Positions 29,001 through 32,000 of a stretch of DNA of 64,000 nucleotides are shown in pieces; within the stretch, counting starts at the first letter, position 1; each line of letters begins with the position of its first letter. The DNA is taken from positions 1 to 64,000 of the forward strand of contig JAXLNO010002227.1 in the NCBI GenBank assembly GCA_038087875.1. The letters are read 5' to 3'. The position numbers are program-made. The stretch is from Malacoraja senta (lineage: Eukaryota).

Positions 29001-32000
29001 AGGAGGACAGGGTAAAGCTGAAAGTGTTGCAGAGAAACCAACCCAAATTCACAGAGAAACAAAGAAAAGAAATTGCTGAGGTCTTTAAAACGGGTGCAGC
29101 ACAAAAAACCATTGGCATCATGGTAAGTCCATTTTTAACTTCCTGAACTTGGCAGGAGAAATGAATTATATTTTCATGATAAAATCTGCACCCATTTTTA
29201 TCACATGCATTCCATATTACCTGATAAAGCTGCTGCTTGTATGGCTCAACAATATATTGCAAATCCTATTTCTTGAACATCATTGACTGCACCATGGGAA
29301 TTTTTAATAGCTCTGCTACAAACCAGCCTTTGTCTGCCCTGTGTTGGACTGCCAACAATGGGGTTAAATTAAAGGCCATGTTTTGCAATTGAGTATTGTT
29401 GTTTCCAAACTTATTTTATGTTTAAGATAGACATAAAATGCTGGAGTAACTCCGTGGGACTGGCAGCATCTGTGGAGAGAAGGAAAGGGGGACGTTTTGG
29501 GTCGAGACCCTTCTTCAGAACCCCCTTTTTAGCTTTCTCAACTGTATGAACTCTGTTTGACAATTTGAGTTGTGATCTAATCGCTCAATTTATATTATTG
29601 TCCCAAGTTTTAATATTATCCAAGTTTTAATATAATACTTCATTTGCACTCAGACGTGGATTAAATTTCAGAAATGAAAAGCTTCTTAAGCAGGTGGTTC
29701 TACAGTTTTTATAGGAGCACATACTCTGAAACTGAGGCAATTTCCCATAATAATAATGGCAGGATTTAATGTATATCCCCTACCTCCTTCCAAATAAATT
29801 CCAAATGAAGTAAAATGCATCAATCGTAGAAACTAATTATTTGAGTGATATAAAGCATGAAAAATGTTTTATATATTTGAACATTTCCAAACTTTTGGAA
29901 AAGTGGTGCAGTGTGAATGAATGCTGGAAATCTGAGCAAAAAGAGAAATTTGTGGAAACTCAACTTAAGAGTTTAGTTTAGAGATGCACCGTGGAAACAG
30001 GCCCTTTGTCCCACCGAGTCCGTGCCGACCAATGATCACCCATACACTAGATCTATCCTACACACATAGGGACAATTTTGGAGAAGCCAATTAACCTACA
30101 AACCAGCACGTCCTTGGAATGTGCAAAAAAAAATCACACGGTCGCAGGTAGAACTTACAAACTTCTTACAGATAGCACCCGATGTCGGGATCGAACCTGA
30201 GTCCCTGGCGCTGTAAGGCAGCAGTTCTGCCGTTGCGCCATTGTGCTGCCCCTTGTGGAGAAAGAAATTAGTGCTTTATGTTTCAGGTCAATGTTGTTTT
30301 ATCAAGAATTTAGGTCTTGATGCTCCACAAACACAGATCGATTGTGCGTAGTCTCTCCTCTCTGCCTTAAGCTTCACACCTCTCCCCTTCTGCACTTTAA
30401 GGTCTAATAGCTCTCTTCTTAAAAGTTGTGATGAATGATTCATAGCCTAAAATATTAGTTCTAGATGCTGCCTAAATCGCGTTGCACCAACATTTTAATT
30501 TACTCCCACACATTTGTAAAACACACAAATTGTCTTGTTCCACACAAATTGTAGAACACTCACAAATACGAAGATAGACACAAAATGCTGGAGTAACTCA
30601 GCGGGTTAGGCAGCATCTCTGGAGAGAAGGAATGGGTGACATTACGGGTTGAGACCCTCCTTACAAACACGACATTTGTGTTTGGGTCTGCTTATGTGAC
30701 ACCCATGAAGCAGTAAAAATCGCCCACAGTATGAATATTTCAACTGAAGTGTCTGAACATAAATTTGAACCAAACCAGCGTGCAACATTTACCATTGTGA
30801 TGGGGGGGGGGGGGGGGGTTCATCCATAAAGAAAATACAACAAGCCTGCTCTGCAAGAGCAATAAAACTGACAGCACTCTGATCTGTTTTGTATTTAAAT
30901 ATCCTCAAGCTGTTATTTTAAGAATCCGAGACTTTGCAGTGCTCTTTGTGAATCACCCATTAAAAGCAAGTTGGGATCAATTCCCAACTTCTTGTTTGAA
31001 ATGCCATAAAATTTAAAGTGTGCAGAATTTATTATAGCATTCTATATTTATTATATAATTTATTATAGCATATAGGTATGCAAGTAAAACTAAACACCTT
31101 TTTATACCAAGACAAATTTGACCTGTCCCCTTGTGACACATCACTGAAGAAAACTAAATGGTAATAATAAATGTGGACTAGGAATTTTGTCATGAGTGGA
31201 CTGGGCTCTCAATTTAATGTAATTGTTTATTAACAAAATAAAAATTCGAAAAATTGGAAAACTTGTATGAAACTGGAAAATTACTTTCATTTCAACAATT
31301 ACAAATAAAATATAAACTCGGAAATAATCAATATTTTAAATATTTTCAAATATGCGACTATTTGAAAAAAATACAAAAGATAATAACCCAGTAGATGTAT
31401 TGGACGAGGCAATGCAGATAAAAGCGGAATCAGCAAACTTAATATCATATTTGTATAATATTATCTTAAATGTACAAATACCACCTACGGAGGGTATCAG
31501 AAGAGACTGGGAACAAGAGTTAGCTATTAAAATTTCAAAGGAAAGTTGGAATGAATACATATTAAACGTGCATAAATGCTCGATTAATGTAAGACACACT
31601 TTAATACAATTTAAAATTTTACATAGATTATATTATTCAAAAACTAAAATTCATAAAATTTTCCCAAATGTATCATCTATTTGTGATAAATGTCAATCCC
31701 AAGAAGCTACTATAGCACACTCATTCGTTTTCTGTACAAAAATTCAAAAATTTTGGAATGAAATTTTTGAAATCTTTACAAAGTTATTTAAAACAAGACT
31801 GATACCCAAAGCAGAATGGATTATCTTCGGTATAACGGAAGATGGTCCAGAACTAAATGTGTTTCAAAAGAAACTAATGGACTATGGGTTAATAATTGGA
31901 AAAAAGCTAATTCTAAAATTTTGGAAGAAGGCTCCAATACCAACTATAAATATGTGGATTTCAAATATGTTTGAAACATTACACCTAGAAGAGATAAGAC

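What the first reader, a model, noticed from the sequence alone, without database searches (positions are those of the whole stretch)
29072..29122. Conserved HxW motif removed by a 3-codon deletion in the penultimate exon
The sequence gives …KEIAEV-FKTGAAQKTIGIM, where PER1/PER2 have …ELxEV-HxW-xxxGGLPxAIDV (recalled). The exon is 142 nt and the frame is preserved. The His/Trp and the following LP are lost, while the upstream VLKEDRxKL…QPxF helix is retained.
Basis: partly seen in the sequence, partly recalled or inferred. Interest (0 to 1): 0.65.

Follow-up and report, generated by a model that had tools for sequence, protein, structure and literature searches.

The report
Skate PER2 lost an invariant tryptophan
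A skate-like PER2 clock gene carries a real nine-base in-frame deletion that removes a tryptophan found in every other PER1 and PER2 protein compared, in the tail that grips the partner protein cryptochrome, a tail already eroded in sharks, rays and skates.

Summary
Window 28981-29122 is a 142-nt exon with AG/GT borders. It is the penultimate coding exon of a PER2 orthologue of a cartilaginous fish, closest to skates, and I do not take the window for human. Its first 35 residues match the CRY-binding domain of mouse PER2 crystal chains. Every orthologue has 50 residues here and the window has 47.

The lost residues are Pro-Trp-Phe (equally Phe-Pro-Trp). The Trp is W in 120 of 120 PER1/PER2 homologues. 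Fifteen of 16 elasmobranch rows have Phe there, and the window keeps it.

The deletion is absent from the two closest skate proteins (P0030, P0033), so it is private to this lineage. It comes with six lineage-specific substitutions in the same 47 residues, against 30 in 1058 elsewhere.

It is the latest step of a longer erosion:
- All 16 elasmobranch PER2 rows lack the first zinc-binding Cys.
- All three skate sequences lack 19 residues holding the N-terminal Trp module.

The other exons are open. I read this as an intact gene with a weakened or rewired CRY and WDR5 grip, which is inferred and not shown. New variant of a known kind; moderate interest.

The parts
28981..29122 (+). Penultimate coding exon of the PER2 orthologue, 142 nt. 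It encodes helix alpha3, the loop, helix alpha4 and the segment leading to the zinc clasp of the CRY-binding domain.
   Evidence: Sequence and splice sites. PDB match to 4u8h_B/4ct0_B/6of7_B. Pfam Period_C 41.4 bits. tblastn to P0001, P0030, P0033.
29081..29089 (+). Site of the 9-nt in-frame deletion, codons V-F-K. Pro-Trp-Phe (or Phe-Pro-Trp) of the orthologues is missing between 29083|29084 or 29086|29087. The exact break is ambiguous because Phe flanks both sides.
   Evidence: Alignments. Trp column W in 120 of 120. No tandem repeat in 28700-29400.
29114..29116 (+). GGC = Gly at the position of mouse PER2 D1206. That Asp makes a salt bridge to CRY2 K503 and is the central Asp of the WDR5-binding I-D-V-T motif. 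The local sequence is I-G-I-M instead of I-D-I-M/T.
   Evidence: Asp in 14 of 16 elasmobranch rows, Glu in Cetorhinus, Asn in Heterodontus. Roles of D1206: PMC4157330 section 8 and PMC13649712 passages.
25818..25917 (+). Antepenultimate exon, 100 nt. It lacks 19 residues after ...E-K-I (gap between 25879|25880). In other batoids these hold the D-P-I-W-L module, which corresponds to the mouse W1139 region. The loss is shared with both other skate proteins.
   Evidence: Role of W1139 and neighbours: PMC4157330 section 10 passage and PMC7064333 passages.
33255..33467 (+). Last coding exon with TGA stop at 33465-33467. It begins D-R-I-F-S-E-K, where bony-vertebrate PER1/PER2 have E/A-C-x-x-C-E, so both zinc-binding Cys are absent.
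   Evidence: Column counts. Zinc ligands C1210/C1213: PMC4157330 section 9.
24293..24467 (+). Exon encoding the start of the Period_C domain (Ser/Gly-rich region).
   Evidence: Pfam PF12114 33.8 bits on this exon alone. tblastn.
5373..23249 (+). Seventeen upstream coding exons of the same gene: bHLH-like 7659-7817, PAS-A 9704-9907 and 14348-14494, PAS-B 15647-15742 and 15953-16078, the large Pro-rich exon about 22569-23249, and others. All are open with AG/GT nearby. An alternative exon lies at 985-1086. The first coding exon is not in the window.
   Evidence: tblastn. Per-exon Pfam. Splice-site flanks.
55612..56516 (-). Neighbouring HES-family gene, convergent with PER2. The bHLH exon is about 56430-56516. 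The last exon carries an Orange domain and a C-terminal W-R-P-W (55615-55626), followed by the stop.
   Evidence: Pfam Hairy_orange 54.8 bits. HLH 27.1 bits. WRPW and bHLH pattern.

Best explanation

It removes Pro-Trp-Phe immediately after helix alpha4. That shortens by three residues the strand that, in the mouse PER2-CRY structures, runs from alpha4 to the I-D-V segment and the zinc clasp. [quoted passage not shown]

The deletion is the latest step in a stepwise erosion of this interface:
1. All elasmobranch PER2 rows: His to Phe, and loss of the first zinc Cys.
2. Most batoids: loss of the second Cys.
3. Skates: loss of the 19-residue N-terminal module with the Trp that docks beside the CRY secondary pocket.
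4. This lineage: loss of the invariant Trp, Pro to Gln, Asp (D1206 equivalent) to Gly, and two Glu to Val changes in alpha3.

What is kept is the first arm and the hinge: alpha3 with the L-K-V-L stretch and the Asp equivalent to D1167, plus the Q-P-K-F loop.

My inference is that the protein still contacts CRY through alpha3, the loop and alpha4, but with a weakened or differently positioned C-terminal arm. I also infer that it has lost the WDR5-binding motif.

Shown: the deletion, its privacy to this lineage among the sequences compared, the invariance of the Trp, the local excess of substitutions, and the open state of the other exons. Inferred: any effect on CRY or WDR5 binding.
For: - Exon anatomy and the 3-residue gap against all 21 comparison rows.
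- Trp is W in 120 of 120 rows and Pro is P in 116 of 120.
- Both closest skate proteins keep P-W-F (P0030 S-P-W-F, P0033 F-P-W-F).
- Window-specific substitutions (P0030 = P0033, window differs): 6 of 47 in this exon against 30 of 1058 in the other 20 exon segments. By my inspection at least 7 of those 30 are alignment or exon-boundary artefacts. Fisher one-sided p = 0.003, post hoc. P0030-specific (2/47 v 54/1058) and P0033-specific (3/47 v 115/1058) changes show no such excess.
- Erosion series.
- The gene looks intact. All 22 exon segments are open with AG/GT nearby, and per-exon Pfam hits for bHLH_PER, PAS-A and Period_C reach their curated cut-offs, while the two PAS-B exon pieces score just below theirs (PAS_3 23.8 v 25.6 bits; PAS_11 22.3 v 25).
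- PER2 assignment: orthologues are named PER2 in 14 elasmobranch species. The elasmobranch clade of 15 rows sits with bony-vertebrate PER2 and apart from 5 PER1 rows, SH-aLRT 100.
- Structural roles from PMC4157330, sections 6-10 and 12 read: the U-shaped clamp, the D1167 and D1206 salt bridges, residues 1171-1174, the CXXC clasp, and W1139.
- From PMC13649712 passages: I-D-V-T at 1205-1208 is the WDR5-binding motif, and D1206A abolishes WDR5 binding.
Against: - No experiment or structure here shows what the Trp does. No paper in the searchable library names W1195, H1193 or P1194 (0 papers). I could not see the contact map in Nangle's Figure 1A or its source data.
- The PER2-CRY interface is described as resilient. 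None of 10 single alanine-stretch mutants lost CRY1 binding (PMC4157330 section 6). D1206A changes the CRY1 Kd only from 35 to 69 nM (PMC13649712). A 3-residue loss might therefore do little.
- The Asp column is not conserved across vertebrates (D in 34 of 120, N in 41, A in 37).
- The rate excess was computed after seeing the exon, on small counts.
- One assembly and one haplotype were read, so fixation in the species is unknown.
Confidence: 0.6

Rival explanations
1. Neutral indel. In elasmobranch PER2 the strand after alpha4 no longer takes part in CRY binding because the zinc clasp that pinned it is gone. On this reading the deletion and the neighbouring substitutions are drift in an unconstrained tail, with no effect on clock function.
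For: - All 16 elasmobranch rows lack the first zinc Cys and 12 of 16 lack the second.
- Nangle et al. note weaker electron density just before the CXXC motif.
- WBM-motif mutants barely change CRY1 affinity.
- The window also has a private 7-8-residue deletion in the disordered Pro-rich exon, so indels do occur in this lineage.
Against: The Trp is kept in 16 of 16 other elasmobranch rows, sharks and rays alike, long after the first Cys was lost. The Pro is kept in 15 of 16. The position therefore stayed under constraint without the clasp. The tail just downstream (the D/E-x-E-I-H-N-L-E-L block of the last exon) is also well conserved.
Confidence: 0.25
2. Artefact or private allele. The 9-bp gap is an assembly or consensus error, or a rare heterozygous allele of the sequenced animal, and not a feature of the species.
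For: Only one sequence of this locus was available. No protein of this species appeared in the searches.
Against: - The gap is exactly three codons inside an otherwise clean exon.
- There is no tandem repeat or low-complexity run at the site.
- The window holds no N.
- Six further private substitutions sit in the same exon, which an assembly slip would not produce.
Confidence: 0.07
3. Early decay. PER2 in this lineage is losing its repressor role, for example because a paralogue took over, and the CBD changes are the first lesions of a gene on its way to becoming a pseudogene.
For: Lesions accumulate in one functional domain: the 19-residue loss, the 3-residue loss, the loss of the zinc ligands and the loss of the Asp. 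There is a local excess of private substitutions.
Against: - All 22 exon segments in the window are open with usable splice sites.
- The PAS, bHLH-like and CK1-region exons are 90-97% identical to P0030.
- Every indel is in frame.
- Private substitutions outside this exon are few (30 of 1058 raw).
- Whether a paralogue with an intact CBD exists was not settled. No cartilaginous-fish PER1 was among the best 120 of 749 hits, which is no evidence either way.
Confidence: 0.08

Closest known systems
Mouse PER2 CRY-binding domain as solved with CRY2 (4U8H) and CRY1 (4CT0, 6OF7)
   Same: Helix alpha3, loop and alpha4 align residue for residue: exon residues 1-35 to chain residues 65-99 of 4u8h_B. The Asp equivalent to D1167 and the hydrophobic 1171-1174 stretch are kept.
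   Different: The mouse chains read ...E-V-H-P-W-V-H-T-G-G-L-P-T-A-I-D-V-T-G-C-V-Y-C. The window lacks P-W plus one residue, has Gln for the Pro, Gly for D1206 and no CXXC. It also lacks the whole N-terminal module around W1139.
PER2 orthologues of other skates (P0030, unnamed record; P0033, Rhinoraja longicauda)
   Same: Same exon structure, the same 19-residue loss of the N-terminal CBD module, the same absence of both zinc Cys, and a near-identical last exon.
   Different: Both keep P-W-F, P-P and the Asp (S-P-W-F-K-T-G-A-P-P-K-T-I-D-I-M and F-P-W-F-K-T-G-A-P-P-K-T-I-D-I-M). The window reads F-K-T-G-A-A-Q-K-T-I-G-I-M.
Engineered PER2 CBD mutants: PER2 lacking CXXC and the C1210A/C1213A mice; WBM mutants I1205G, D1206A, V1207A
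   Same: These are natural counterparts of the same lesions. The zinc ligands are absent, as in the CXXC mutants (PMC4157330 section 9; PMC11645128 passages). The Asp of the I-D-V-T motif is absent, as in D1206A (PMC13649712).
   Different: No published mutant that I could find removes the Trp. The natural protein combines several lesions, and its CRY partner may have co-evolved.

Membership tests
Vertebrate PERIOD proteins (PER1/2/3) | bHLH-like region plus tandem PAS-A and PAS-B domains | tested here: met
   Pfam exon by exon: bHLH_PER 70.5 bits (7659-7817); Per3-like_PAS-A 101.5 and 43 bits (9704-9907, 14348-14494). PAS_3 23.8 bits and PAS_11 22.3 bits on the two PAS-B exons fall just under the whole-domain cut-offs, as expected for half domains.
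Vertebrate PERIOD proteins (PER1/2/3) | C-terminal Period_C (PF12114) domain | tested here: met
   33.8 bits on exon 24293-24469 (profile positions 1-55) and 41.4 bits on the penultimate exon (profile 121-155 of 171); cut-off 25. Profile positions 156-171, which include the motif, are not matched.
PER2 orthology group | Groups with PER2 and not PER1 in a tree; closest named relatives are PER2 | tested here: met
   This is indirect. Exons are about 75-97% identical to P0030 and 69-94% to P0033. Those two sit in the elasmobranch clade (15 rows, SH-aLRT 100) on the PER2 side of a 100-supported split from 5 PER1 rows (30 rows picked from the 120). No PER3 row was available, and the window's own exons were not joined or placed in the tree.
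PER1/PER2 CRY-binding domain as defined by the mouse structures | Alpha3 helix with the hydrophobic 1171-1174 stretch and the Asp (D1167) that pairs with CRY2 R501 | tested here: met
   The window reads K-E-D-R-V-K-L-K-V-L, aligned to mouse K-E-D-Q-E-K-L-K-L-L. Roles: PMC4157330 section 8.
PER1/PER2 CRY-binding domain as defined by the mouse structures | Invariant Trp after alpha4 (mouse H-P-W; numbering W1195 derived) | tested here: not met
   Deleted in the window. W in 120 of 120 other rows.
PER1/PER2 CRY-binding domain as defined by the mouse structures | N-terminal module with the buried Trp (W1139) beside the CRY secondary pocket | tested here: not met
   The 19 residues are absent from exon 25818-25917, as in P0030 and P0033. 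Role.
PER1/PER2 CRY-binding domain as defined by the mouse structures | CXXC pair (C1210, C1213) of the intermolecular zinc finger | tested here: not met
   The window reads R-I-F-S at these four positions. The first Cys is absent in 16 of 16 elasmobranch rows and the second in 12 of 16.
WDR5-binding (WBM) motif of PER2, [L/I/V]-D-V-[V/T] | Central Asp flanked by aliphatic residues | tested here: not met
   The window reads I-G-I-M. Motif definition and the D1206A result come from PMC13649712 passages. Other elasmobranch rows have I-D-I-T/M, which already departs from the motif at the third position.
CRY binding as a function | Physical binding to CRY1/CRY2 | not testable with these tools
No complex prediction was run.

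The most novel reading that the evidence does not exclude
Skates, and this lineage most of all, have rewired the PER2-CRY repressor interface. Four elements are gone: the zinc clasp, the secondary-pocket module, the invariant Trp and the WDR5 motif. On this reading PER2 here holds CRY, if at all, only through the alpha3-loop-alpha4 arm. That would make it a natural minimal CRY-binding domain. It would also show that features described as strictly conserved across vertebrates are dispensable for a working vertebrate clock, presumably with matching changes in the skate cryptochromes.
Probability: 0.25. Interest if true: 0.6.

Novelty: new variant of a known kind. Interest (0 to 1): 0.38.

Why it matters
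PER-CRY binding is the core of the vertebrate clock's negative feedback loop, and its interface has been mapped only in mouse proteins. A natural PER2 that has lost an otherwise invariant Trp offers a ready-made set of graded variants (shark, ray, skate, this species) for asking which interface modules are needed. That is all the more so because its lineage had already shed the zinc clasp and the secondary-pocket module.

It also qualifies a published statement that the zinc-coordinating residues are strictly conserved across vertebrates (PMC4157330). None of the 16 elasmobranch PER2 rows has the first Cys.

By itself, a private three-residue deletion in one species is a modest finding.

Tried and rejected
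- **PER3 or a novel paralogue.** I considered that the gene might be one of these because its tail is so diverged. I rejected it on names, best hits and the tree, though no PER3 row could be included.
- **The missing residues lie elsewhere.** I considered a second copy of the exon or another splice donor. tblastn finds a single match, and the gap is internal to the exon.
- **Word-index search with the 47-residue exon**. It found only 1 protein among 4 candidates.
- **All-against-all representative search with the same exon**. It gave 18 hits. P0003 was used only after named it (Hemitrygon akajei).
The other members of P0030's cluster stay unknown.
- **Search for cartilaginous-fish PER1 with the Latimeria PER1 tail**. 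None appeared among the best 120 of 749, which does not show absence.
- **Literature.** No paper names W1195, H1193 or P1194 (0 papers). Two searches for clock-gene work on skates or sharks (searches listed of 151 and 120) gave nothing on this interface. The G3 2024 paper says only that cartilaginous fishes have one per2.
- **Schmalen et al. 2014 (Cell)** is not held. What I say of it comes from other papers' text.
- **Not attempted.** dN/dS could not be computed without orthologue DNA.
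Full report
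**What is in the window.** The window has no N. A stop-to-stop ORF list showed PERIOD-like pieces along the + strand. tblastn with the one protein found by a word search of the exon laid out the gene from about 985 to 33467. That protein is P0001, Narcine bancroftii 'period circadian protein homolog 2-like'. The two closest proteins gave the same layout: P0030 (an unnamed record) and P0033 (Rhinoraja longicauda PER2).

All 22 exon segments are open and have AG and GT at or within a few bases of the match ends. Pfam on single exons finds bHLH_PER, PAS-A, PAS-B pieces and Period_C. The first coding exon lies outside the window.

I take the window for a cartilaginous fish close to skates, not for human. 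Every search and alignment that used window sequence was done exon by exon, so the window's own protein was never searched, folded or placed in a tree as a whole.

**The observation.** The exon of the finding is 28981-29122, 142 nt, bounded by ...cag| and |gtaagt. Residues 1-35 align without gaps to mouse PER2 in the crystal chains 4u8h_B, 4ct0_B and 6of7_B (E 1.5e-08 to 1.3e-07), and the match ends at the motif.

The next homologous exon, 33255-33467, ends in a stop and matches the C-termini of the orthologues, so the exon is the penultimate one. Against P0001, P0030 and P0033, tblastn places a three-residue gap right after E-V. When the exon peptide is aligned alone with the same segment of 21 proteins, all 21 have 50 residues and the window has 47. 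The 21 comprise 16 elasmobranch rows, 4 bony-vertebrate PER2 and Latimeria PER1.

What is missing is P-W-F, or equally F-P-W, because a Phe flanks both sides. There is no tandem repeat at the site.

**How conserved is what was lost.** I aligned the best 120 of the 179 hits to the tail of P0001. These are PER2 and PER1 proteins from cartilaginous fishes to mammals. Many are isoforms or close relatives, none is named PER3, and the 59 unlisted hits were not examined. Column counts:

| Column | Counts among 120 rows |
|---|---|
| Trp | W 120 |
| Pro before it | P 116 |
| Residue before the Pro | H 104, F 15, S 1 |

All 16 non-His rows are elasmobranch. The His is variable in sharks and rays, and the window still has the Phe that stands in its place. 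The Trp is invariant everywhere except in the window.

The Pro (116 of 120) is Gln in the window by substitution.

**Which gene.** Fourteen elasmobranch species have this protein named PER2 by NCBI or UniRef. The next best hits are PER2 of coelacanth, caecilian, sturgeon and birds.

I built a quick maximum-likelihood tree of 30 rows picked from the 120. The 15 elasmobranch rows form one clade (SH-aLRT 100) on the PER2 side of a 100-supported split from 5 PER1 rows. The two skate proteins are sisters.

Downstream and convergent lies a HES-family gene with a bHLH exon, an Orange domain and a terminal W-R-P-W. From memory only, PER2 neighbours HES6 in human, which would fit.

**Private to this lineage.** P0030 and P0033 both keep P-W-F. 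I counted sites where two of the three skate sequences agree:

| Changes specific to | Sites |
|---|---|
| Window | 36 |
| P0030 | 56 |
| P0033 | 118 |

These counts make P0033 the outgroup and place the deletion after the split from P0030's lineage.

The same exon holds 6 window-specific substitutions in 47 sites, against 30 in 1058 in the other 20 exon segments. By my inspection at least 7 of those 30 are artefacts: three from a misaligned match at 15647-15742 and four at exon borders. Fisher's one-sided p is 0.003. The test was made after seeing the exon, on small counts.

P0030-specific and P0033-specific changes show no excess in this exon (2/47 v 54/1058 and 3/47 v 115/1058).

The six private changes, placed on mouse numbering derived, are:
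- Glu to Val at the positions of mouse 1161 and 1169
- Met to Leu at 1174
- Pro to Ala at 1201
- Pro to Gln at 1202
- Asp to Gly at 1206

**The wider erosion.**
- Bony-vertebrate PER1/PER2 have a Cys pair at the start of the last exon. The first Cys is C in 101 of 120 rows and in none of the 16 elasmobranch rows (L 10, K 3, N 2, R 1).
- Among the 16 elasmobranch rows the second Cys position is W in 7, C in 4, G in 2, and F, P and S once each. The window reads R-I-F-S across the four positions.
- Batoids lack about 14 residues before the N-terminal CBD module.
- All three skate sequences, the window included, lack 19 further residues. In Narcine, Pristis and the stingrays these hold the D-P-I-W-L module (exon 25818-25917, gap after ...E-K-I).

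**What these parts do in mouse.** This comes from PMC4157330, where I read sections 6-9 and 12 and one passage of section 10.
- The CBD is an extended chain of five helices.
- D1167 and D1206 make salt bridges with CRY2 R501 and K503.
- Charge substitutions at 1171-1174 abolish binding.
- C1210 and C1213 share a zinc ion with CRY2. Density just before the CXXC is weaker.
- W1139 is buried beside the secondary pocket.
- The authors call the zinc ligands strictly conserved across vertebrates, which the elasmobranch rows contradict.

From PMC7064333 passages: the N-terminal CBD residues remodel the CRY serine loop and tune affinity for CLOCK:BMAL1.

From PMC13649712 passages: I-D-V-T at 1205-1208 is a WDR5-binding motif lying between CRY1 helix alpha22 and the lid loop. 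D1206A abolishes WDR5 binding but moves the CRY1 Kd only from 35 to 69 nM.

From PMC11645128 passages: zinc-ligand mutant mice were made, and the authors expected that severe loss of binding would need several substitutions or a wide deletion.

No paper in the library names the Trp by number. Schmalen et al. 2014 is not held. Supplements and figures that mark the contact residues could not be seen.

**Reading.**
- Shown: a real in-frame deletion of an invariant Trp, private to this lineage among the sequences compared. It lies in a domain with a local excess of private changes, in a gene that otherwise looks intact.
[quoted passage not shown] The grip on CRY would then be weaker or shifted, and the WDR5 motif would be gone. 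The first arm (alpha3, the loop, alpha4) is kept.
- Against a strong effect: the documented resilience of the interface, and the poor conservation of the Asp across vertebrates (D in 34 of 120).
- Against neutrality: the Trp survived in all 16 other elasmobranch rows after the zinc clasp was lost.
- Artefact and early gene decay are less likely, for the reasons given under the rivals.

**Left open.**
- Whether the deletion is fixed in the species.
- Whether skates have a PER1 or PER3 with an intact CBD. One search found none among the best 120 of 749 hits, which does not show absence.
- What the skate cryptochromes look like at the matching sites.

**Verdict.** This is a new variant of a known kind, of moderate interest. 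Its main value is as the end point of a natural series of PER2-CRY interface reductions in cartilaginous fishes.

Noticed in passing
window 25818-25917 (+), gap after 25879: The antepenultimate PER2 exon is 100 nt and lacks 19 residues that other batoids have there. These form the D-P-I-W-L module, equivalent to the mouse W1139 region that docks beside the CRY secondary pocket. The loss is shared by both other skate proteins (P0030, P0033), so it is older than the 3-codon deletion.
   Followed up: yes
window 33255-33269 (+), and rows of alignment A1: The zinc-finger Cys pair, described as strictly conserved across vertebrates, is absent. The first Cys is missing in all 16 elasmobranch PER2 rows and the second in 12 of 16. 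Sturgeon and paddlefish rows read C-L-C-S or C-I-C-S instead of C-x-x-C.
   Followed up: partly
window 29114-29116 (+): Gly stands in place of the Asp equivalent to mouse D1206, which makes the salt bridge to CRY2 K503 and is the centre of the WDR5-binding motif. Fourteen of the 16 elasmobranch rows have Asp here.
   Followed up: partly
window about 23000-23100 (+), inside the large exon 22569-23249: A second window-specific in-frame gap of 7-8 residues relative to P0030 and P0033 lies in the Pro/Gln-rich disordered region. P0030 and P0033 have small private gaps of their own in this exon.
   Followed up: no
window 55612-56516 (-): A HES-family gene lies convergent with PER2. It has a bHLH exon (Pfam HLH 27.1 bits) and a last exon with an Orange domain (54.8 bits) and a terminal W-R-P-W. 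It resembles HES6, the human neighbour of PER2, by recall only.
   Followed up: partly
window 985-1086 (+): A small basic exon (K-K-R-K...) matches residues 81-114 of Narcine P0001. It is present in some elasmobranch isoforms and absent from P0030 and P0033, so it is probably an alternative exon.
   Followed up: no
window 36040-37483 (-), 61727-62712 (+), 31340-32077 (+): There are reverse-transcriptase fragments of retroelements (Pfam RVT_1 33.8-54.2 bits; zf-RVT below its cut-off). A short element recurs in many introns, giving near-identical translated ORFs across the window (for example 29422-29514 and 30560-30691).
   Followed up: no
window about 44950-45000 (+): A dinucleotide microsatellite is read in ORF lists as a run of H-T-H-T.
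   Followed up: no
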